A stretch of 64,000 bases of DNA from Eledone cirrhosa (lineage: Eukaryota), in NCBI GenBank assembly GCA_964016885.1, contig OZ024742.1, forward strand, positions 284,146,001-284,210,000. The letters are read 5' to 3'. This document shows, piece after piece, positions 2,930-51,906 of this stretch; position 1 is the first letter of the stretch, and each line of letters starts with the position of its first letter. The position numbers and the translations under genes are program-made. The notes below the pieces were generated by a model. The model did not search any database. It saw nothing but the letters and a program-made list of their open reading frames with translations, and was not told where the DNA came from.

Positions 2930-5900
2930 TCGCCAACTCACTATTTCTGGGATGGCTGTTCCCTTCGGTTCCTTCGGTATAAAGTAACGTTCAAATTTTT
3001 CTCGATTCTTCTCTCCATTCGAACCCATTCATTCAATCACTTCCATGTCCTAATTTCACACTATATCATATTTTCACCATTCTATATCATATCTTTTCTC
3101 TAAAAATCATATTTTCCCTATCACCGCATTTTCTCTATCGTATTTTCTTAAACAAAACAAATCTTGTATTTTCGTTTATTGTTAAATTATGCCCAAAATA
3201 CGGCGATCTTATCTTAAACCTTACATTCTCGCTAACAACCCATCATCCCTCCCTCCCGCCCCCACGCACCACCATTATTACGTGGACCAATCATAAGACA
3301 GAGGCCCATACTATCGCTTAACTGGTTGCTTTTCGATATGATAGATGGACTACGGAATTCTGGAGAGTTGAAGAGAGAAAAATGTGGACGCTCAGCGACA
3401 ATGCCAAAGATAAAGCCAAATTCACCTCGTGGACGAGAATGCAAGCACTCCTCCTTGTTTCGGCCCAGGATGGCTAACATAACCCCATCCCCCCCCCGCG
3501 CCCCACCGCTCCCACCCTCCAAACGCAATCCAAAACTTCAGAGTTGGTACCATGAATGTAGGCACCTTAAAGGGTCGCTCTAACGAGGTTGTAGAAATGC
3601 TTGAACGAAAGGAGGTCGATGTTTGTTGTATTCAAGAGACCAGGTGGAGGGGAGGGGAGGCTAGATTCATCGTGGGTAAAGAACGATGCTATAAGCTTTT
3701 CTGGGTGGGAAATGACAATGGGTTGGGTGGGGTAGGAATCATGGTAGCAGAAAAGTGGGCAGATAAGATAATAGACGTAAATAGAGTGAACGACAGAATA
3801 ATTAAAATAAGACTTGTCCTCAATAAAACTACGGTGACAGTAATATCTGCGTACGCACCCCAATCCGGACTGCCCGGCGCTATAAAAGACAGATTCTACG
3901 AGACACTGATGCTCGCTACCTCCCAAATAACCGACAGTGACTATATAGTTATTGCAGGCGACCTAAGTGGTCACGTTGGACAACATTGTGACGGCTATGA
4001 CGGAATCCATGGAGGCTATGGGTTCGGTACTAGAAATGAGGAAGGCTCCAGAATCCTGGAATTCTGCGACGCAAATAACTTAACTATCTGTAACACTAAC
4101 TTCAAAAAACGAGACAATCACTTGATCACCTATAGATCGGGGGAACACACAAGCCAGGTAGATTATATCCTTACCAGAAGACGTGACAGAGTGTCTGTTG
4201 TTAACACTAAATCCCACCCCCCTGAAGAATTCACCTCCCAACATAGACTGATAATTAGCGACCTCATAGTCAGGACGAGACGTACTAGACAGCGGAAGAG
4301 GACTATCCTCAGGAGAAAAATATGGAAGCTAAAGGACCCCATAGCCAGAAATAAATTTCAAAGCATATTACTTGACGCTTTCGACAGTAAGGAAGAGCAA
4401 TTAGAGTCGTATAATATAGAGGAACAGTGGGAATTCCTGAGAGCAAACCTGCTGACGGCGGCAGACGAAGTCTGTGGCTGGAGCAGGCCTGTAGGTAGGA
4501 GGAGAGAAACATGGTGGTGGAACAGTAAGGTGGAGGAGTCAATTAAGGCCAAAAAGCAGGCTTGGAAAGTATGGCGGGATGGGGGAAGTAGAGAAGACTA
4601 TCAAGTGGCCAGGAGGGAAGCTAGGAGACAAGTGTACTTCGCAAGAAGGGAAGCAGAGGAAAGAAAGTTCAAGCATGTTCTACAACGTGAGGACCAAAAA
4701 CGTGAGGTGTTCAGGATTGCCAGGCAATGTGTCAAGGAAAACCGTGATATTGTCGGGGAGAAGTGTGTACTTAACGATGATGGCATACTTGCCATCACCG
4801 ACGCTGATAAGAAGGTAGCTTGGAAGTGTCACTACGAAAGGCTTCTAAATGAGGAGAACAAATGGGAGAAAGACAGTCTCCCCCAGATCGATCCAATAGA
4901 GGGACCAGCAGTGTTAGTTGAAGGTAGTATAATAAGTAAGGCAATCAAAGATATGAAGACGGGTAAGGCGGCTGGGCCTTCGGAAATAGTTGCTGAGATG
5001 CTGAAGGCATCTGGTTCGGTGGGACACACCATGGTCACCCGGATAGTTAACCAAGTCGTACAGAATGGGGTTGTTCCGAAGGAATGGCGTAGCAGCATCA
5101 TCGTTAACTGCTATAAGGGAAAAGGAGATGCCCTAGATAGGAGTAACTATAGAGGCATTAAATTAATCGACCAGGTCATGAAGGTCACGGAAAAAGTAAT
5201 AGCGCAACTAATCAGAGAGAGAATTGATCTAGATGAAATGCAGTTCGGGTTTGTGTCAGGCAAAAGTACCACAGACGCTCTTTTCATTGTACGACAACTA
5301 CAGGAGAAGTACCTAGCTAAAAGTAAACCCCTATACTTAGCTTTCGTCGACTTGGAGAAAGCCTTCGACAGAGTCCCCCGTTCCATTATCTGGTGGTCTC
5401 TTAGAAAACTAGGTGTTGACGAATGGCTTGTGAGAGCTATACAAGCCATGTATAAAGAAACAGTCAGTAAGGTTCGAATTAACAACGAATATAGTGAAGA
5501 GTTTAGCGTAAAAGTTGGTGTCCATCAGGACTCTGTTCTTAGCCCCCTACTATTTATTATTGCCCTTCAGGCTATAACAGAGGAGTTCAAGACCGGCTGC
5601 CCATGGGAACTCCTATACTCAGATGATCTAACGCTCATAGCTGAATCAATGGCCGAGCTAGAGAAGAAATTCCAAACATGGAAGCACGGCCTAGAATCAA
5701 AAAGCCTTAAAATTAACCTGGCTCAGACTAAAGTTCTAGTTTGTAAGAAAGAAAATAAGGGGGCAGTCCCTTCCGGGAAGTGGCCATGCTCAGTGTGTAG
5801 GAAAGGCGTAGGTAGAAACTCCATTTTATGTCCCAAATGCAAAGTATGGATGCATAAAAGATGTAGTGGGATCACAGGTAAGCTAACTAAGAACATAGAT

Positions 5901-6963
5901 TTTTACATGTGGCCGGTGCTCTGGTGCAATAAGTAGCAGCAAGTGCCCACAAAATACTAGCTCCTTCAACTGCGCAGAGGGTTCTATAGAAATAGTGGAC
6001 AGCTTCCGTTACCTGGGTGACAAAATCAGAAGTGGGGGAGGGTGCTCTGAAAGTACAGTAGCTAGAGTCAGAACTGGATGGAAAAAGTTCAGAGAGCTTA
6101 TACCACTATTAGCCGCTAAAGGGTTCTCCCTAAAAATGAAAGGCAGGTTGTATGATGCCTGCATACGAACAGCAATGTTGCATGGCAGTGAGACCTGGGC
6201 ATTGTGTACAGAGGATATACGCAGACTAGAGAGGAACGAAGCTTGCATGCTCCGCTGGATGTGTAACAGTAATATACGTGAACGGCAAAGCATAAACGAA
6301 CTAAGGAAAAAATTAGAGATAAGAGGGATCAGATGTTGTTTACTCGAGAGAAGGCTACGTTGGTATGGACACGTGATGCGTATGAAAGTCGATAGCTGTA
6401 TAACAAAGTGCAGGGCAATAAAGATAGACGGTAGTCACGGAATAGGCAGACCTAGAAAAACCTGGGACGAGCTGATAAACTCCAACATCACACACTTACA
6501 CCTCTCCAAGACAATGTCACTGGACCGAGACCTTTGGCGGTACTCAGTAACAGAGAAGACCCGCCTTACCTAAATATATAGTAAAACCTACTCCAGCCAG
6601 TAGGCATCTCTAACAAAATACACCCCGTCCCACCACCCCCACCCCCACACCACCCCGTTCTATGTAAAGTTATGTTGGTGCCGCGCCATCCAGGCCGAAA
6701 CAAATGAGATCGTGTAGGTGTCACGACAAAAAAACACACAGTCCACACTGTAATGTGGCCGTGTAGGCAACACGGTAAAAACCTCCCAGACCCACACTGT
6801 AAATGTGGTTGGTGTTAGGAAGGGCATCCAACTGTAGAAAACCTGCCAGACAGTCCTATGCGAGCAAGACAATCACTCTTGCCTCAAGTGGGACTACCCC
6901 CGTCCAAACCCATGCAAGCGTGGAACACGGACGTTAAACGTTGATGATGATGATGATGATGAT
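2930..6963 (+). mobile_element. RTE-clade LINE (family A), near full-length copy
   Basis: 5'UTR (start approximate), single APE+RT ORF, about 370-bp 3'UTR and (GAT)n tail at 6942-6963; TA microsatellite on both sides. Confidence 0.95.
3552..6573 (+). pseudogene. RTE ORF: APE endonuclease + reverse transcriptase + internal PHD-type finger, disabled
   Basis: Motifs [17 protein letters not shown](S)[22 protein letters not shown](D)SVLSP, Y(S)DD, FRYLG. One extra T at 5900-5904 relative to sibling copies splits ORFs 3552-5936 and 5995-6573; siblings have GDLN, HQGS and YADD. Confidence 0.92.
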
Positions 6964-6999: not shown

Positions 7000-9900
7000 C
7001 AATGCTATTCTATAATTCTGTCTGGCTGTTCTAAATAATCTTGTGTATTTTAATCGCTTGTTACTGTTTATTGCTTTATTTAAAACCCTCCCCTCACTAA
7101 CTACCCCATACCCCAGCCGCCCACCCCCACTCTCCACCATTATTATTTGGACAAATCATAAGTCAGCGGCCTATGCTATCACTTCTCCTGGTTGCTTTTC
7201 GATATGATGGATGGACTACAGGTTCCCTCAACCCCCCCCCCATCTCTCTCCAAATGTAAAATAAACTTGTGAGCTACGAATCTCAGAGTTTGTCGGTCCC
7301 TCATCTTTGTCGCTCGTTTTTGAAATATGTAATGTATTCATCCTATTCTTGTCTATCCATGTTTCCTAGTCCTTCAAAACAATCTTCTTGTATTTTAAAC
7401 TCCCATAATTCAGTCAGATCCTCGAAAGCAATCTTCTACTTGTATTTAAACTCTTAATACTGTTATATGCTTGTTTAATTATGGCCGAATTTCTAGGATT
7501 ATATTATAAAATAACCTTCTCGCTAACTCCCCCAGATCCCCCCCCCCCCTCCGCCCCCACTCGCCACCATTATTATTTGGTCCAATCATAATTCAGTGGC
7601 TTATAATATGTTTCTCCTACAAATCTCTTTCACAAAACCCCCGCCTCAGCCATCACTCCTTAAGTTTAGACCTGGTTGCTTTTCGATATGCTAGATGGAC
7701 TATGGAATTCTGGAGAGTCTGAAAAATCTGGACACCCAAAGACAATGCCAAAGATAAAGATAAATTCACCTCATGTTGGCGGACGAGAATGCAAGGACTC
7801 CTCTTTATTTCGGCCGCGGATGGCTAACATAACGCCATCTCCCTCTCCGCGTCTCATCCTTCCCACCCACCAAACGCAATCCAAAACTTCAGAGTTGGTG
7901 CCATGAATGTAGGCACTTTAAAACGTCGCTCTAACGAGGTTGTAGAGATGCTTGAACGTAAGGAGGTTGATGTTTGTTGTATTCAAGAGACCAGGTGGAG
8001 GGGTGGGTCTGCTAGATTCATTGTGGGTAAAAAACGATGCTATAAACTTTTCTGGGTGGGAAACGACAATGGGCCTGGTGGGGTGGGAAACGACAATGGG
8101 CTGGGTGGGGTAGGAATCATGCTAGCAGAAAAATGGGTAGATAAGATAATAGACGTAAATAGAGTGAACGACAGAATAATTAAAATAAGACTTGTCCTAA
8201 ATAGAACTACTGTGACAATAATATCCGCCCATGCACCCCAATCCAGACTGCCTGGAGTTATAAAAGACAGATTCTATGGATCGCTAATGCTCACTACCTC
8301 CCAAATAACCGACAGTGACTACATAATTATTGTTGGCGACCTAAATGGTCACGTTGGACAACATTGTGATGGCTATGACGGAATCCATGGAGGCTATGGG
8401 TTTGGTACTAGAAATGAGGAAGGCTCCAGAATCCTGGAATTCTGTGACGCAAATAACCTAACTATCTGCAACACAAACTTCAAAAAACGAGACAATCACT
8501 TGATCACCTATAGATCAGGGGAACACACCAGTCAGATAGATTATATCCTTACCAGAAGACGTGACAGAGTGTCTGTTGTAAACACTAAATCCCTCCCCCA
8601 TGAAGAATGCACCTCCCAACATAGCCTCATAGTTAGCGACCTCATAGTCAGGATGTGACGTACTCGACTACAGAGGAGGTCTACCCTAAGGACAAGAATA
8701 TGGAAGTTAAAGGACCCCACAGCCAGTAACAAATTTAAAAGCATATTACTTGATGCTTTTGACAGTAAGGAAGTACCTAGCTAAAAGTAAACCCCTATAC
8801 TTAGCTTTTGTTGACTTGGAGAAAGCATACAGTCAGTAAGGTTAGAATTAACAACGGATAGTGTGAAGAATCAGAGCTTTGTCCTTAGCCCTCCTCCAAT
8901 TTATTATTGCCCTTCAGGCTATAACAGAAGTTCAAGACCGGCTGCCCATGGGAACTTCTCTATGCAGATGATCTATCACTCATAGCTGAATTGATGGATG
9001 AACTAGAAAAGAAATTCCAAACATGGAAGCATGGCCTAGAATCAAAAGGCTTTAAAGTTAACTTGTCTAAGACTAAAGTTCTAGTATGTAGGAAGGAAAA
9101 TAGAGCACAGGTCCCCCGCTGGGATATGGCCATGCTCAATGTGTAGGAAAGGAGTAGGCAGAAATTCCACTTTATGTCCCAAATGCAAAGTATGGGTGCA
9201 TAAAAGATGTAGTGGGAGCACAGGTAAGCTATCTAAGAACGTAGATTTTATATGTGGCCGGTGCTCAGGTGCAATAAGTAGCAAGCGCCCACAGGATACT
9301 AGCTACTAGCTCCTTCTATTGCCCAGATGGCTCTATAGAAATAGTGGACACCTTCCGTTACCTGGGTGACAAAATCAGCAGTAGTGGAGGGTGATCAGAA
9401 AGTCCAGTATCCAGAGTCAGAATGGGATGGAAAAAGTTCAGAGAGCTAATACCACTATTGGCCGTTAAAGGTTTCTCTCTAAAAATGTAAGGCAGACTGT
9501 ATGATGCTTGCATATGAACAGCAATGTTACATGACAGTGAAACATGGGCATTGTGTGTGCAGAGGTCGAAGCATGCATGCTCCGCTGGATGTGTAATAGT
9601 AATATACGTGAACAGCAAAGCATAAATGAACTAAGTGAGAAATTAGGTATAAGAGGGATCAGATGCTGTTTACTCGAGAGAAGACTATGTTGGTATGGTC
9701 ATGTGATGCGCATGAAAGATGACAACTATATAAAAAAATGCAGGGCGATCAAAATTGACGGAAGTTACGGAGTAGACAGACCCAGAAAAACCTGGGACGA
9801 TTTGATAACTTCCGACCTTACTCACTTACACCTCTCTAAGACAATGTTGCTAGACCGAGATCTTTGGCGCTACGCAGTAATACAGAAAACCCGCCTTGCC

Positions 9901-12640: not shown

Positions 12641-13810
12641 CCATAGCTTAATAAATATTAACATCTCTAAATTACATTCCACCACATACATCTGCTTTAG
12701 TATACAAACACGTGGTCAATCTCAAAATTCAAATTTACATCTTGGAGCTATTTCCTTTTGTTATATTACGTTTTATTCGTAAACCCACGTTCTTAGCAAA
12801 ATTTACTTTCAACGGTATCTTATAAACTTTTATAAGTGCCTGAAGAAAGGTCACTAATTTGATGCCGCTAATATTTTGGAGGTATGGTCAAATTTGGGCT
12901 TTGAAATCTTGGGTAGAGCCTTTGTTCCATGTATGAACATAAATTATTAATATATATATTATTTTCTTTTTTTAGTAGTTTCAGTCTTTAGACTGAAGCC
13001 TTGTTGAGGCACTGGCTTTATTTAGTTGAACATAAACACCTATTTTATTGATTTCTTCGATGTTGTACAGTTTTATTGTGGAACCTTTATGAAAACCTTT
13101 AGAGTTGACAGAATAAAGTAACAGTCAAGTACTTAGATCAATTCCATTGACTTCTCCGTCCCAAACTGATCTTGTGCTTAAATGAGAAACCATTTATAAG
13201 TTGGTGTCTGGAACATAACATAAAGGTTCTTACATAAAATTATGAATGACAAGCTTTAGATAAATATATACACTTTAGATAAACAGTTTAGTATTGTAGA
13301 ACCAAGGGTGGTTTCAGGCAGTTTACTATCAAAAGGGGTTAAAGTTTAATTAGGGATAAAGATTAAAAATCTGTGGTGGATAATCACAAAAGCTAAATAA
13401 AACTTTGTTATTGCTTAGAGTGATGGTGATGATAGGGGGGGGGGGGGGTAGAAGAACTGGATCAAAATAAAAATGGCCGAATACTATGGTATAAGTTTGA
13501 GAAATTTTTTTTTTTTGTGTTTCTCTAAAGAAGGGCTTTCCTTGAAACCGTCTTCTCACCTCTAGGACAGCATCTGAATTTGTGACTTTATATAATAAAT
13601 ATTCAAACTAAATAGGGTCAGATCATGCCATTCTGACAAAGTTAATGGGTAAACTATTATTATTCTATGTTACAGCATTTACAAAAATAAAAATAAAAGG
13701 TGTGTGAGGGTTAGAATGTCTTCACGGTATAGGAACCAAGACATTGTAAGAAACCAGAGTAATGGTTATACTGACTAAAAAAAAAAAAAAAAAAAAATCA
13801 AGCCAGAGTA

Positions 13811-13846
<36 letters not shown>

Positions 13847-13903
13847 GGCCCCTGTGCAAGGATAACACGCAAATTCGTGAAATGTTCCATTTTTTTTTTT
13901 TTT
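13811..13903 (+). pseudogene. U6: U6 snRNA retrocopy lacking the 5' stem-loop
   Basis: ATACTAAAATTGGAACGATACAGAGAAGATTAGCATGGCCCCTG(T)GCAAGGAT(A)ACACGCAAATTCGTGAA..GTTCCAT(T)n matches U6 including the ACAGAGA box; about the first 21 nt are missing. Confidence 0.93.
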
Positions 13904-29499: not shown

Positions 29500-30725
29500 A
29501 TGCTCTGAGTAGGGCCATTTCCTTTCTACTTGCTAGAACTTTAGTCTTTGTCAAGTTGACTTTAAGACCTTTTGATTCCAGGTTATGTTTCCAGGTCAGG
29601 AACTTTTTCTTTAATTCTGCCATAGATTCAACTAAGAGAGTTAGATCATCAGCATACAGGAGTTCCTAAAAGCATCCTGCTTTAAACTCTTCTGTTATAG
29701 CCTGGTTGACGATAATAAGCAGGAGAGGGCTAAGGACAGAGCACTGGTGGAGGCCAGCTTTCATGCTAAACTTCTCACTATAGTCATTAATTTTAACCTT
29801 GCTGACTGTACATAGTTTGTATTGCCCTCACAAGCCACTCATCTACTCCTAGTTTCCTAAGAGCCCACTTGATTATGAAACAGAGGACCTTGCCAAAAGC
29901 TTTCTCCAGGTGAATAAATGCTAAGTAGAGAGGTTTACTTTTAGTTAGGTACTTATCTTGCAGTTGCCTCATCGATCACTAATCAGTTGTACAATGTTTT
30001 TGTAATTTTCTTGAACTGGTCTATCAGTTTGATGCCCCAGTAGTTCCCTCTGTCTAGTGCATCATTTTTGCCCTTGTAGCAGTTGACGATGTTGCTACGC
30101 CACTCGTTGGGTATAGTTCCATTTTCTATTTCTTGGTTTACAATATGGGTGATTAGGGTGTGTCCTACCATCCCAGATGGTTTCAGCATCTCACCAGCTA
30201 TTCTCAATGGCTCAGCTGCTTTAGTCACCTTAATTGCCTTACTTACTACACTGTTGCTGACTTGTATCACTGGTCTCTCTGTTGGAACCACTTGGAGCAA
30301 GCTATCTTCTTCCCATGCATTCTCCTCATCCACCAGTCTCTTTTAATGACAGTTCTATGCTGCTTTCTTTTCAGTTTCAGTGAGGGCAAGTGCACCTGTC
30401 ATCTCAGACACACTTCTCCCCCACAATGTCACTATTTTCCTTGACGCACTCCCTTGCGATCCTGTACTCCTCATGTCGCATAACATGTATAAACTTATTT
30501 CTGCTTCCCTCCTTGAAAAGTATACTTGTCACCTCATCTCTCTCCTAGCCTCTTGGTAAAGTTCTCTTCTTCCCTCATTTTGCCATTCTTTCCATGCCTG
30601 TTTCACCCACCCTACTATTCTACAACCAAGTTACTCTATATCACTCCCGAGATCTCTGCTCCACCTACATACCTCTTTTGTGGCCAGTAGATTATTTCTC
30701 AGGAAATCCCATTGTTCCTCTATTG
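29500..30725 (-). mobile_element. Old degenerate RTE internal fragment
   Basis: EEQWDFLRNNLL, NCYKGKNDALDRGNYWGIKL, LYADDL remnants with many disablements. Confidence 0.82.
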
Positions 30726-30744
30726 TATATATATTTACACACAT

Positions 30745-31720
30745 ATATCTGGTTCTTATAGCAGAATCAGTAGAGGAGCTCGATAATAAATTCTGGCTAT
30801 GGAAACAGCAGTTGGAAGCAAGAGGACTGAGAGTGAACCTAGCTAAGACAAAAGTGTTGAGTAGAAAAGAGGACAAAACCCTGATTCCGTCAGGGAAATG
30901 GCCATGTTCGATATGCAGAAAAGGAACTGGCATAAATTCTATAAAATGCACACAATGCCGATCCTGGGTACACAAGAGATGTAGTGGGATAGCAGGAAAA
31001 CTAACAAGTAGGGAGAAATATGTATGCAGTAGATGTACAGGGAAATTAGACAGTAGAAGTCGCATTGATAGACACATTTTTCAAATGCAGGAGGGCGCTA
31101 TAGAAGTGGTGGATAGCTTCCGGTACCTAAGAGATCAGATTAGCATGGGAGGAGGGTGTTCCGAGGCCATAGTATCTAGAATAAGGACGGGTTGGAAGAA
31201 GTTTAGGGAGCTGCTTCCTCTGTTGACGAAGAAGGGTTTCTCCCTGCGTACGAAAGGCTGGTTGTATGATGCCTGTGTGAGGAGCGTAATGCTGCATGGT
31301 AGTGAGACATGGGCAGCAACTGCAGAGGATATGCGACGGCTGGAGAGAAATGAGGCAAGCATGCTCCGTTGGATGTGCAGTATAAATGTGCGTGAACGAC
31401 CCAGCATAAATGTGTTGAGAGGGAAACTGTGTCAGAGGGATAGAATGTAGTGTACGGGAGAGGAGACTGAGGTGGTATGTGATGCGCATGGAAGATCACC
31501 GATGGGTGAAGAAGTGCCAGGAAATGCCAGTTGAAGGAAGACGTGGTAGAGGTAGACCACGAAAAACATGGGCGGAGGTGGAGAGAACAGACCTCAGATC
31601 ATTGAAGCTCACGGTGGAGATGACGAAGGACCGTGACGAGTGGAGAGATGCTGTGCTGAATAAGACCCGTCCCACCCTTGCAAGCAGGGAAAAGCGGACG
31701 TAAAATGATGATGATGATGA
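30745..31720 (+). mobile_element. RTE family B 3' fragment (also PHD-bearing, no long 3'UTR)
   Basis: [45 protein letters not shown]; the ORF runs directly into the stem-loop/(GAT)n tail. Confidence 0.9.
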
Positions 31721-37135: not shown

Positions 37136-37769
37136 AAGACAGGTCAAGGAAATATGTCTTGCTTGAATACATTCCTATTTAACATCTTTAACTCTCTGAT
37201 GCAAAACTGTCTATTTTAAAATATGTTATGTAAATTTAAATTTTCTCTCAAAATTTGATCTAACAATGTTTTAAATTATGTTCCAAGCAGCTATATAATG
37301 GAGAAATTAGATATTTTACAAACTCCTTCCAAATTTTTTATTATTTCAAAAATTTATTGAAACATATCGACAGTGTTTTTGTGCTAAAAATATAATAATG
37401 AAAAGGTTAAAAAATTTCCTTAGTCATGGAAATCAGTTGCCTAAATGAACTTATTTAATGAAAACATTTGAATAAATAAAAAGTTGACAACTTTATTGTA
37501 CATAAATTATTTATTGACATAATAATATATGAATGTGTTTGAGGGGTTTGGTGTAAAATTCCAAGGTTTCAGTATTCTAAACAGCTGTTTCATTAGTGAA
37601 AATAGAAATGGCTGGAATTGTAGAATTGTTATCTTACTAACTCATTATATACAACTCATCACCAAAATAGGTTTTGAGTGCACATGGCAAAGAACGTAAT
37701 AATATGAGGATACAGACAGGCCAACAGGAATAGATATAAATATATATACACACATATATACATACATAT

Positions 37770-37800
<31 letters not shown>

Positions 37801-37957
37801 CTTTAGTATCAGTGCTCTGAAATAGTGATGTATGTATGAATGTATGTATAGTATATTTGATAATATACGGTATGTTTATTTTTAAAAATGTTAAAGACCA
37901 TTCGCTATGAGTTTCAAAGTAGTGACCATGTCACTTACTATGTCTCGGCAAAAACAA

Positions 37958-38017
37958 AGGGAAGCAACTGACAGCTGTTTCTCATTTGTTAACGGTTATC
38001 AAGATTGCTTATCCCCT
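37958..38017 (-). ncRNA. Type I hammerhead motif, U3-A8 core variant (degenerate copy)
   Basis: Minus strand: aagcaatc-TTGATAA-ccgttaacaaatga-GAAAC-agct-GTC-agttgctt. Confidence 0.55.
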
Positions 38018-38250
38018 TTCTTCTGCCAAGACTTAACGAAGCTGGATTCTTATAGAATTCCAGTGGTGTTTAAGAGCTGATTAAACAGAGCAGTTGCCGG
38101 TCTAGCAAAAATTAGAAATTAGTATCAGTGCTCTGAAATAGCGATGTATGTATAGTAAATTTGATAATATACTGTATGTTTATTTAAAAACATTTTGAAG
38201 ACCATTCACTATGAGTTTTAAAGTAGTGACTATAAGTCTCGGCAGAAGCG

Positions 38251-38310
38251 AGGGGATAAGCAATCTTGATAAATGTTAACAAACGAGAAACAGCTGTCGG
38301 TTGCTTCCCT
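38251..38310 (+). ncRNA. Type I hammerhead motif, U3-A8 core variant
   Basis: aagcaatc-TTGATAA-atgttaacaaacga-GAAAC-agct-GTC-ggttgctt: 8-bp stem I, palindromic stem III ACAGCTGT, GUC site. Confidence 0.62.
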
Positions 38311-38945
38311 TTGTTTTTGCTGAGACAGTAAGTGATATAGTCACAACCTCTAACTGGATTACCGATAACAATATTTTGTTATCCCTTATATATGTATATA
38401 TATATATGTATGTATATATATATATGTATATATATATATGTATGTATATATATATATATGTATGTATATATATATATTTGTATGTATACATATATATATG
38501 TATGTATATATATATATGTATATATATATATATACATACATATATATGTATACATACAAATATATATATATACATATATACATACACATATATAATATAT
38601 ATATATATATACATACATATATATATACATATATATATACATACATATATATATACATATATATATACATACATATATATATATATATATACATATATAA
38701 GGGATAACAAAATATCGTTATAGGTAATCCAGTTAGAGGTTGTGAATACTTCGTACTATGGATAGTTTTAGCGTACGGCGTTGTTTGACTCAACAAGAGG
38801 TTTACGTAAGAAGTGAGTTTATGATTTCACTTGTATTCCTATGTAAGTTTATCTTGGAGTAATAAAATTGAAAAAGTGAAGAATAACATGGTCAACAGTA
38901 CAAAAAAGGGGATTTATTTACAGTCTGACAATCAAGATCATCGGA

Positions 38946-39064
38946 GTTATCTCCGATGATCTTATTAAGCTAACATCAGATTAAAAATTGAGTGGCACTG
39001 CTTCTAGTGTTCAGCAATTTTTAGAAAACTTAATCAGTGAAACAATTGTCAGACTGTAAATAAA
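38946..39064 (+). ncRNA. Hammerhead-like motif with long stem II and downstream AATAAA (core CCGATGA)
   Basis: tct-CCGATGA-[attaag..aaaaattg..gcactg/tagtgt..caattttt..cttaat]-GAAAC-aatt-GTC-aga..aaataaa; stem I is short. Confidence 0.45.
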
Positions 39065-39111
39065 TCCCCTTTTTTTGTACTGTTGACCATGTTATTCTTC
39101 ACTTTTTCAAT

Positions 39112-39582: not shown

Positions 39583-42500
39583 ATCATCATCATCATCATC
39601 ATCATCGTTTAACGTCCATGTTCCACGCTTGCATGGGTTTGGACGGGAGTTTTCCCACTTGAGGCAAGAGTGGTTGTCTTGCTCGCATAGGACTGTCTGG
39701 CGGGTTTTCTACAGCTGGATGCCCTTCCTAACACCAACCACATTTACAGTGTGGGGCTGGGAGGTTTTTACCGTGTTGCCTACACGGCCACATTACAGTG
39801 TGGACTGTGTGTTTTTTTGTCGTGACACCTACACGATCTCATTTGCTTCGGCCTGGATGTTGTGGCACCAACATAACTTTACATTGAAAGGGGCGGTGCG
39901 GTTGGGTGGGGGTGGTGGGACGGAGGTGTATTTTGTTAGAGATGCCTACTGACTGTAGTAGGTTTTACTTTGTATTTAGGTAAGGCGGGTCTTCTCTATT
40001 ACTGAGTACCGCCAAAGATCTCGGTCCAGTGACATTGTCTTGGAGAGGTGTAAGTGTGTGAGGTCAGAATTTATCAGGTCGTCCCAGGTTTTTCTGGGTC
40101 TGCCTACTCCGTGGCTACCGTCTATCTTTATTGCCCTGCACTTTTTTATACAGCTGTCGTCTTTCATGCGCATCACGTGACCATACCAATGTAGCCTTCT
40201 CTCGAGTAAACAACATCTGATCCCTCTTATTTCTAATTTTTCCCTTAGTTCGTTTATGCTTTGTCGTTCACGTATATTACTGTTACACATCCAGCGGAGC
40301 ATGCAAGCTTCGTTCCTCTCTAGTCTGCGTATATCCTCTGCACACAATGCCCAGGTCTCACTGCCATGCAACATTGCTGTTCGTATGCAGGCATCATACA
40401 ACCTGCCTTTCATTTTTAGGGAGAACCCTTTAGCGGCTAATAGTGGTATAAGCTCTCTGAACTTTTTCCATCCAGTTCTGACTCTAGCTACTGTACTTTC
40501 AGAGCACCCTCCCCCACTTCTGATTTTGTCACCCAGGTAACGGAAGCTGTCCACTATTTCTATAGAACCCTCTGCGCAATTGAAAGAGCTAGTATTTTGT
40601 GGGCACTTGCTGCTACTTATTGCACCAGAGCACCGGCCACATGTAAAATCTATGTTCTTAGTTAGCTTACCTGTGATCCCACTACATCTTTTATGCACCC
40701 ATAGTTTGCATTTGGGACATAAAATGGAGTTTCTACCTACGCCTTTCCTACACACTGAGCATGGCCATTTCCCAGAAGGGACCGCCGCCTTATTTTCTTT
40801 CCTACAAACTAGAACTTTAGTCTTAGCCAGGTTAATTTTAAGGCCTTTTGATTCTAGGCCGTGCTTCCATGTTTGGAATTTCTTCTCTAGCTCGTCCATT
40901 GATTCAGCTATGAGCGTTAGATCATCTGCGTATAGGACTTCCCATGGGCAGCCGGTCTTGAACTCCACTGTTATAGCCTGAAGGGCAATAATAAATAGTA
41001 GGGGGCTAAGAACAGAGCCCTGATGAACACCAACTTTTACGCTAAACTCTTCACTATATTCGTTGTTAATTCTAACCTTGCTGACTGTTTCTTTATACAT
41101 GGCTTGTATAGCTCTCACAAGCCATTCGTCAACACCTAGTTTTCTAAGAGCCCACCAGATAATGGAACGGGGGACTCTGTCGAAGGCTTTCTCCAAGTCA
41201 ACAAAAGCTAAGTATAGGGGTTTACTTTTAGCTAGGTACTTCTCCTGTAGTTGTCGTACAATGAAAAGAGCGTCTGTGGTACTTTTGCCTGACACAAACC
41301 CGAACTGCATTTCATCTAGATGAATTCTCTCTCTGATTAGTTGCGCTATTACTTTTTCCGTGACCTTCATGACCTGGTCGATTAATTCAATGCCTCTATA
41401 GTTACTCCTATCTAGGGCATCTCCTTTACCCTTGTAACAGTTAATGATGATGCTGCTACGCCAGTCCTTCGGAACAACCCCATTCTGTATGACTTGGTTT
41501 ACTATCCGGGTGACCATGGTGTGTCCCACCGTTCCAGAGGCTTTCAGCATCTCAGCAACTATTTCCGAAGGCCCAGCCGCCTTACCCGTCTTTATATCTT
41601 TGATTGCCTTACTTATTATACTACCTTCGACTAACACTGCTGGTCCCTCGATTGGGTCGATGTGGGGGAGTCTATCTTTCTCCCATTTATTCTCCTCATT
41701 TAGTAGCCTTTCGTAGTGACACTTCCAAGCTACCTTCTTATCAGCGTCAGTGATGGCAAGTACGCCATCATCATTAAGTACACACTTCTCCCCGACAATA
41801 TCACGGTTTTCCTTGACACATTGCCTAGCAATCCTGAACACCTCACGTTTTTGGTCCTCGCGTTGTAGAACATGCTTGAACTTTCTTTCCTCTGCTTCCC
41901 TTCTTGCGAAGTACACTTGTCTTCTAGCTTTCCTGCTGGCCACTTGATAGTCTTCTCTACTTCCACCATCCCGCCATACTTTCCAAGCCTGCTTTTTGGC
42001 CTTAATTGACTCCTCCACCTTACTGTTCCACCACCATGTTACTCTCCTCCTGCCTACAGGCCTGCTCCAGCCACAGACTTCGTCTGCCGACATCAGCAGG
42101 TTTGCTTTCAGGAATTCCCACTGTTCCTCTATATTGTACGACTCTAATTGTTCTTCCTTACTGTCGAAAGCATCAAGTAATATGCTTTGAAATTTATTTC
42201 TGGCTGTGGGGTCCTTTAGCTTCCATATTTTTCTCCTGAGGATAGCCCTCTTCTGCTGTCTAGTACGTCTCGTCCTGACTATTAGGTCGCTAATTATCAG
42301 TCTATGTTGGGAGGTGCATTCTTCATGGGGGTGGGATTTAGTGTTTACAACAGACACTCTGTCACGTCTTCTGGTAAGGATATAATCTACCTGGCTTGTG
42401 TGTTCCCCCGATCTATAGGTGATCAGGTGATTGTCTCGTTTTTTTAAGTTAGTGTTACAGATAGTTAGGTTATTTGCGTCACAGAATTCCAGGATTCTGG

Positions 42501-42938
42501 AGCCTTCCTCATTTCTAGTACCAAACCCATAGCCTCCATGGATTCCGTCATAGCCGTCACAATGTTGTCCAACGTGACCATTTAGGTCGCCTGCAATAAC
42601 TATATAGTCACTGTTGGTTATTTGGGAGGTAGCGAGCATCAGTGTCTCGTAGAATCTGTCTTTTATAGCGCCGGGCAGTCCGGATTGGGGTGCGTACGCA
42701 GATATTACTGTCACCGTAGTTTTATTGAGGACATGTCTTATTTTAATTATTCTGTCGTTCACTCTATTTACGTCTATTATCTTATCTGCCCACTTTTCTG
42801 CTACCATGATTCCTACTCCACCCAGCCCATTGTCATTTCCCACCCAGAAAAGCTTATAGCATCGTTCTTTACCCACGATGAATCTAGCAGACCCACCCCT
42901 CCACCTGGTCTCTTGAATACAACAAACATTGACCTCCT
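39583..42938 (-). mobile_element. RTE family A copy, slightly 5'-truncated, ORF uninterrupted
   Basis: Open frame from [10 protein letters not shown] (about 42938) to the stop at 39976, with GDLN, HQGS, YADD and the PHD finger intact; lacks only about the first 20 codons; (TA)n at both ends. Confidence 0.96.
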
Positions 42939-42986
42939 TATATATATATATATGTATATATATATGTATATATATAAATATATATG

Positions 42987-43021
<35 letters not shown>

Positions 43022-43024
43022 GTG

Positions 43025-43057
<33 letters not shown>

Positions 43058-43060
43058 GTA

Positions 43061-43108
<48 letters not shown>

Positions 43109-43261
43109 TATATATATGTGTATATATATACTTGTGTATAATGGTAGCTATGGTGCTTCCATAGGCGGTATGCCAAAATTAGCACTCAATATTCAGCAGA
43201 GTAGAGTGTAGATAGTATAAAGAAACGAAAAATCAGAGATGCATCTGGACTCAATTTATTG

Positions 43262-49390: not shown

Positions 49391-51906
<2,516 letters not shown>

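What the first reader, a model, noticed from the sequence alone, without database searches (positions are those of the whole stretch)
37803..38345. Two-copy element with a U3-A8 variant hammerhead on a segment that is flipped between copies
Seen: a ~115-125-bp block occurs as a direct repeat (37803-37927, 38119-38230), but the ~110-bp segment following it is in opposite orientation in the two copies (37927-38035 vs 38233-38343). That segment is bounded by short inverted repeats (gtctcggca.. / ..tgc(c/t)(a/g)agac). In both diverged copies it holds a hammerhead with core UUGAUAA. Established: positions 3 and 8 form a Watson-Crick tertiary pair, so C3U plus G8A is compensatory rather than random decay. 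Inference: a family fixed for the rare U3-A8 core, with ribozyme polarity switched by hairpin-mediated inversion or template switching.
Basis: partly seen in the sequence, partly recalled or inferred. Interest (0 to 1): 0.72.

Follow-up and report, generated by a model that had tools for sequence, protein, structure and literature searches.

The report
Retrozyme copy with U3-A8 hammerhead
This is one mirror-image insertion of a 316-base jumping repeat whose predicted self-cutting hammerhead RNA carries a rare but already published base-pair swap; the "flipped segment" is likely just the ordinary back-to-back way Penelope-type elements insert, not a switch.

Summary
The direct repeat, the inverted segment and the UUGAUAA core are real. 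The locus is one insertion of a dispersed 316-bp non-coding unit beside (TA)n. With the core left free, 43 of 45 genomic matches have U3, 45 of 45 A8 and none C3 or G8. Homologous subfamilies have C3-G8 and covarying stems, so a U3-A8 type I hammerhead is well supported; cleavage is untested. U3-A8 is in print, including about 1,300 Schistosoma hits (PMC4209133). The flip is not a cassette: 44 of 85 loci have two back-to-back arms, the breakpoints scatter over the unit, and here they lie outside the claimed inverted repeats, which are the base of stem I. That is the known Penelope-like insertion shape (PMC8557442). Less ordinary: the conserved G10.1-C11.1 pair is C·A here, and A·A, U·U, A-U or G-C in relatives, a natural series worth assaying. 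The scan noted similar U3-A8 retrozymes before in other genomes.

The parts
37730..37802 (.). (TA)n/(TACA)n microsatellite, insertion target at the long 3' end
   Evidence: sequence; copies of the family end in (TA)n at this end
37803..38118 (-). complete 316-bp unit, arm 1 (unit position p = window 38119-p); long 3' end at 37803, alternative short 3' end at 37828
37942..38032 (-). hammerhead copy 1 with extended stem I (91-nt hairpin); core 38002-37996, GAAA 37981-37978, predicted cut after 37970; first stem I pair is C·A in this copy
38119..38233 (-).
38232..38233 (.). inner junction of the two arms, 2-nt (AT) microhomology, in the loop of a small hairpin
38233..38344 (+). arm 2, inverted (unit 84-200), cut short on its 3' side
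38236..38326 (+). hammerhead copy 2; core 38266-38272, GAAA 38287-38290, predicted cut after 38298; CC>AU change at 10.1/10.2
38338..38386 (+). 49-nt 3' stub of an unrelated abundant repeat ('M'), joined to arm 2 at a TA(G/T)TCAC microhomology, then (TA)n
   Evidence: junction present in contigs of X1 and X3

Best explanation
The locus is a single back-to-back insertion of a 316-bp non-coding repeat next to a TA microsatellite, likely a non-autonomous Penelope-type retrozyme whose type I hammerhead is fixed for U3-A8 and is predicted to cut as a dimer. Shown: unit length, two fixed 3' ends 25 nt apart, (TA)n targets, partial tandems, inverted arms with scattered inner breakpoints, the fixed core, covarying stems. 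Inferred: a tandem transcript is cut at GUC and probably circularised; a Penelope-like RT/GIY-YIG protein nicks both strands of (TA)n and starts cDNA at the two internal sites, one on each strand; the two 5'-truncated cDNAs are joined by microhomology, which gives the 'flip'. Arm 2 later lost its last ~90 nt when a stub of another repeat was joined on. The two hammerheads at this locus are probably inert passengers: they face opposite ways, so neither has a same-strand partner, and each has a change next to the core.
For: Core left free: 37 of 45 UUGAUAA, U3 43 of 45, A8 45 of 45, C3 or G8 0 of 45. Genome-wide with the same stem III: C3-G8 65, U3-A8 172, C3-A8 2, U3-G8 19, of which 8 sit in one ~9.6-kb array. 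In a sister with 3, 8, 10.1, 11.1 left free (first 100 of 341 listed, counted by eye): 77 C-G, 7 U-A (all on a separate A11.1 haplotype), 6 U-G, 4 C-A, 6 other. 24-row alignment: 16 of 27 pairs change on both sides, 6 of 6 in stem I and 4 of 5 in stem II; covariation 0.396 against 0.243 shuffled (0 of 500) and at most 0.185 slid. A sister subfamily matches Rfam Hammerhead_1 (E 0.00038, 23.9 bits, under the 34-bit cut-off). A young homolog (312 bp, 68% over the whole unit, C3-G8, 1,920 pattern matches) forms true tandem multimers with the same inverted arms and the same two ends. 44 of 85 mapped loci are tail-out inverted; of the 30 with both ends scorable 27 have one long and one short end. 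Matches Penelope anatomy (PMC8557442) and two RT start sites with extension of both strands in vitro (PMC11167929). Intact RT + GIY-YIG elements exist in this genome.
Against: No cleavage or RNA data. The window copies do not match any Rfam hammerhead model even at E 10, and minimum-energy folding gives a rod, not the hammerhead. G10.1-C11.1, called highly conserved in PMC4209133, is C·A (C 100, A 104 of 106). Only 1 of 85 loci (L099) has two complete same-strand hammerheads (read). No autonomous partner found: the one intact Penelope-like family examined shares no DNA with the unit beyond microsatellite-like sequence. Sister rows in the alignment were picked by a fixed core pattern, so core invariance across them is built in, and related rows inflate covariation counts. 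The inner junction is not bridged by any listed contig. In vitro the hammerhead was not needed for insertion by the anole element (PMC11167929).
Confidence: 0.85

Rival explanations
1. One reading: a cassette between short inverted repeats is flipped, switching the strand on which the ribozyme lies.
For: The segment is inverted and its ends are near a 9-bp inverted repeat; the arm-1 break lies in the loop of a small hairpin; two loci share one breakpoint pair (93/26).
Against: Breaks lie outside the repeats and the flanks that a flip would leave are absent; this breakpoint pair occurs in 1 of 44 inverted loci; no excess at the hairpin foot (6 of 88) or at the small hairpin (12 of 88 in 170-200, about 9.8 expected); the repeats covary as the basal helix of stem I.
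Confidence: 0.03
2. Same element, but the hammerhead of this subfamily is a dead relic: U3-A8 plus C10.1·A11.1 killed it in the founder, and the unit spread because Penelope-type insertion does not need cleavage.
For: Two departures from the consensus core; few complete tandems in this subfamily (1 of 85) against long arrays in the C3-G8 homolog; hammerhead mutants did not affect insertion in vitro (PMC11167929); low activity of Penelope hammerheads (PMC4209133).
Against: Stems I and II changed compensatorily between the C·A and A·A subfamilies, both U3-A8, while the core stayed; copies not picked by core also keep it; U3-A8 is reported active in vitro and U10.1·U11.1 natural (PMC3088659).
Confidence: 0.25
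3. The unit is the pLTR remnant of an autonomous Penelope-like element and not a free retrozyme.
For: PLE hammerheads lie in pLTRs and mostly occur as truncated solo copies (PMC4209133); anatomy is the same.
Against: The unit's 5' end joins directly to its own long 3' end in tandems; no shared upstream sequence or ORF in 29 loci picked by the 3' part; the homolog forms 312-bp arrays.
Confidence: 0.08
4. The inner inversion is an assembly chimera.
For: No listed contig bridges 38233.
Against: The two arms differ by about 8-11%, so they are not a folded-back read; the arm-2/M junction is in independent contigs; 44 loci share the shape.
Confidence: 0.03

Closest known systems
Metazoan non-LTR retrozymes (Cervera and de la Pena 2020, PMC7229834, passages read; Li, Clavereau, Pollet 2026, 10.64898/2026.07.22.740005, part 1 of 5 read)
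   Same: Non-coding ~300-bp low-GC unit, type I hammerhead with short palindromic stem III, head-to-tail repeats, proposed origin from Penelope-like elements.
   Different: This subfamily is mostly monomer plus partial unit, not full arrays; core U3-A8 and C10.1·A11.1; stem I extended to about 30 bp; no RNA evidence here.
Penelope-like element insertions (Craig et al. 2021, PMC8557442, passages; anole Poseidon in vitro study, PMC11167929, passages)
   Same: Partial tandems, adjacent inverted 5'-truncated copy, optional 3' tail at one end only, (TA)n or AT-rich targets, two RT start sites.
   Different: No ORF; tail is 25 nt, not 30-40; partner element not identified.
U3-A8 hammerheads (Perreault et al. 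2011, PMC3088659, section 8 read; Cervera and De la Pena 2014, PMC4209133, parts 1-2 of 4 read)
   Same: Same covariation at 3-8; about 1,300 hits in Schistosoma mansoni linked to Cercyon PLEs.
   Different: Those are described as minimal motifs with long helix II and conserved G10.1-C11.1; here stem II is 4 positions with a 6-nt loop and opens with C·A. The mismatch reported in nature there is U·U.

Membership tests
Type I hammerhead ribozyme | Order stem I - YUGANRA - stem II - GAAA - stem III - NUH - stem I | tested here: met
   alignment columns pair as drawn
Type I hammerhead ribozyme | Watson-Crick pair between positions 3 and 8 | tested here: met
   U3-A8 fixed; C3-G8 in homologs, mixed states rare
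Type I hammerhead ribozyme | Stems I and II supported by compensatory change | tested here: met
   6 of 6 and 4 of 5 pairs change on both sides; rows are related
Type I hammerhead ribozyme (canonical consensus) | G10.1-C11.1 pair | tested here: not met
   C·A in this subfamily; G-C only in one sister. Not filed as canonical; filed as variant
Rfam Hammerhead_1 (RF00163) | Score at gathering threshold | tested here: not met
   no hit in window; sister L146 23.9 bits against 34
Type I hammerhead ribozyme | Self-cleavage at NUH | not testable with these tools
   needs an in vitro assay
Non-LTR retrozyme | Short (~300 bp) non-coding unit repeated head to tail with a type I hammerhead | tested here: met
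   316-bp unit, partial tandems; full arrays in the 312-bp homolog
Non-LTR retrozyme ('active' by Li et al. 2026) | [quoted passage not shown] | tested here: inconclusive
   not met at this locus; met at 1 of 85 loci (L099); met widely in the homolog
Non-LTR retrozyme | Monomeric linear and circular RNA in vivo | not testable with these tools
   no RNA run listed
Penelope-like mobilisation | Partial tandem plus inverted 5'-truncated arm, optional tail at one end, microsatellite target | tested here: met
   44 of 85 inverted; 27 of 30 scorable long/short; (TA)n flanks
Autonomous Penelope-like element | RT + GIY-YIG ORF between the repeats | tested here: not met
   none in window region or flanks examined
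Invertible DNA switch | Fixed segment between inverted repeats found in both orientations with unchanged flanks | tested here: not met

The most novel reading that the evidence does not exclude
One retrozyme lineage has walked its hammerhead core through a natural series: the 3-8 pair switched between C-G and U-A more than once, and the 10.1-11.1 pair through G-C, A-U, U·U, A·A and C·A, while the stems kept covarying. The U3-A8 plus C10.1·A11.1 ribozyme is active as a dimer, so G10.1-C11.1 is dispensable in vivo and standard descriptors miss whole retrozyme families.
Probability: 0.4. Interest if true: 0.5.

Novelty: new variant of a known kind. Interest (0 to 1): 0.32.

Why it matters
The main features are known, so the finding as proposed is modest. 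Its use is as a natural test set. Homologous 312-316-nt units differ at 3-8 and at 10.1-11.1 in one genome, so a few transcriptions can show which core changes are tolerated together and whether cleavage matters for spread. The 27-of-30 long/short rule of the inverted arms is genomic support for one Penelope-type complex priming both target strands at two RNA sites, and it shows non-coding retrozymes use that route.

Tried and rejected
Invertible cassette: rejected. Breakpoint hot spots at the hairpin foot (80-100: 6 of 88) and at the cut site (145-160: 7 of 88, about 5 expected if even): no clear excess. L1-style twin priming at this locus was considered because of the overlap at unit 190-200, but family copies have true 3' ends on both sides and the right flank is a stub of another repeat. 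'M' as a MITE around the microsatellite: rejected, it is the 3' end of a longer abundant repeat. Rfam: only U6 in the window; microRNA-model hits are far under threshold. Partner search: window ORFs are RT + AP-endonuclease LINEs; a young 784-aa RT + GIY-YIG family shares no DNA with the unit; other Penelope-like families were not surveyed. Tree of 32 rows: the two C3-G8 rows are not sisters (2 changes in all 200 bootstrap trees) but only 3 branches are starred, one origin is not ruled out, and 5 hits without a readable core were left out. No RNA holder listed. Rows dropped: 100 loci reduced to 86 distinct, 85 mapped; 14 of 44 inverted loci had an unscorable end. Literature: searches found nothing; searches listed no paper on C10.1·A11.1 by title or abstract start, and I did not open most of them. 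Lunse et al. 2017 on Penelope hammerhead variants was not held, and supplements of PMC4209133, PMC3088659 and PMC7229834 were not read; they may already show this variant.

Full report
What is in the sequence. The two blocks at 37803-37929 and 38119-38233 are direct repeats, and 37941-38035 is the reverse complement of 38233-38327 at 92%. Each inverted copy holds stem I, UUGAUAA, stem II, GAAA, a palindromic CAGCUG and GUC, in type I order. The whole segment is a 91-nt hairpin (z -7.2 and -5.0). Rfam finds no hammerhead here, at gathering level or at E 10. The window lies in a 3.0-Gb animal genome.

It is a dispersed family. Searches of the genome gave many copies at 89-94% identity. Mapping them on window 37803-38118 (minus strand = hammerhead sense) shows a 316-bp unit whose start joins directly to its own end, with two fixed 3' ends, at unit 316 and unit 291, each followed by (TA)n. 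The finding is [1-316] plus [190-316] on the minus strand, then [84-200] on the plus strand.

The core is fixed. A pattern with the seven core letters left free gave 45 matches: 37 UUGAUAA, 8 scattered variants, U3 in 43, A8 in 45, none with C3 or G8. A larger set, partly picked by the core and so biased, gave U3-A8 in 102 of 106. Genome-wide, with the same stem III, C3-G8 has 65 matches, U3-A8 172, C3-A8 2 and U3-G8 19, eight of these in one array. Homologs found by accident in flanks have C3-G8 (L078, L017). Following them: a sister with 341 matches, of the first 100 of which 77 are C-G, 7 U-A on their own haplotype, 10 single mixed states and 6 other (counted by eye); and a young 312-bp homolog, 68% identical over the unit, C3-G8, 1,920 matches, in multi-unit arrays with inverted arms. 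So positions 3 and 8 covary inside one lineage. Whether they switched once or more is open.

The fold is under constraint. On 24 rows from this and sister subfamilies, all 6 proximal stem I pairs, 4 of 5 stem II pairs and 6 of 14 basal pairs change on both sides; the covariation score is 0.396 against 0.243 for shuffles (0 of 500) and at most 0.185 for slid partners. Rows are related and sisters were picked by a fixed core, so this supports the stems and not core invariance. One sister matches Rfam Hammerhead_1 at E 0.00038, below threshold.

The flip is not a switch. A flip between the repeats would keep both flanks; here the left break drops 15 nt before the repeat, the piece runs 18 nt past the other repeat, and the expected right flank is missing. 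Of 85 mapped loci 44 have the same tail-out shape. Their 88 inner breakpoints spread over positions 1-277 with no excess at the hairpin foot (6 of 88); the window's pair occurs once. Of 30 loci with both outer ends scorable, 27 have one long and one short end, 2 short/short, 1 long/long (about 4e-6 for a fair coin, my arithmetic). Arm 1 here has the long end, so arm 2 probably ended at 291; it is cut at about 200 by a 49-nt 3' stub of another abundant repeat, joined at a short microhomology. That junction is in independent contigs with 0 differences; the inner junction is not bridged by any listed piece.

Mechanism. Shown: the anatomy and counts above. Inferred from PMC8557442 and PMC11167929 (passages read): a Penelope-type RT/GIY-YIG protein binds the RNA, nicks AT-rich DNA on both strands and starts cDNA at two internal sites; two truncated cDNAs meet and are joined, giving back-to-back arms with a tail on one side. 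Inferred from PMC7229834 and PMC4209133: tandem transcripts are cut by paired hammerheads, whose palindromic stem III can form an 8-bp duplex (-12.5 kcal/mol), and are circularised, which explains copies longer than one unit. Intact RT + GIY-YIG elements are present, but the one family examined shares no DNA with the unit. The two hammerheads at this locus are on opposite strands, copy 1 has C·A at the first stem I pair and copy 2 has changed 10.1/10.2, so they are probably inert.

Comparison with the known. It works like a non-LTR retrozyme mobilised by a Penelope-like element. U3-A8 was reported in nature in 2011 (PMC3088659, section 8) and in about 1,300 Schistosoma motifs in 2014 (PMC4209133). 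Inverted truncated arms and one-sided tails are standard for Penelope-like elements. I found no report of U3-A8 with C10.1·A11.1, but the most relevant paper, Lunse et al. 2017, was not held and supplements were not read. Two earlier notes of this scan describe U3-A8 retrozymes with inverted arms in other genomes; none matched this sequence.

Verdict. Observation mostly right, first half of the interpretation right but known, second half wrong. A variant of a known kind; interest 0.32. The natural series of core states is the part worth a bench test.

Noticed in passing
window 38690-39110: Tail-out inverted insertion of a second abundant (TA)n-targeting repeat ('M'; 3,679 first-look candidates) with two 3' ends about 170 nt apart and a GAAA-CAAUUG-UC motif near 39041-39052.
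   Followed up: partly
G000:C1:5760020-5763706 (L219-L221) and 1,920 pattern matches: Young 312-bp homolog with C3-G8, U10.1·U11.1 and a GUA site, in arrays of 2-5 units with inverted arms; the best candidate for a currently active retrozyme.
   Followed up: partly
L210:1108-3462 and many near-identical copies: Young Penelope-like family with an intact 784-aa RT + GIY-YIG frame and a Cys-rich linker.
   Followed up: partly
L061-L080: Unrelated C3-G8 hammerhead families with the same CAGCUG stem III and C·A or G·U at 10.1-11.1.
   Followed up: partly
L185, L097, L147, L148, L195: U3-A8 (one U3·G8) sisters with G10.1-C11.1 and longer palindromes in stem III.
   Followed up: no
G000:C1:348839237-348913949: Eight U3-G8 motifs at about 9.6-kb spacing, an array that also holds a 694-aa RT frame.
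   Followed up: partly
window 13797-13896: U6 snRNA copy, 91 bits.
   Followed up: no
window 3483-5936, 39976-43185, 49815-51053, 30560-31450, 7828-8658: LINE frames with AP endonuclease, RT and a PHD finger.
   Followed up: no
window 37575-37600: A lone GAAACAGCTGT on the minus strand without a readable core; perhaps an old remnant.
   Followed up: no
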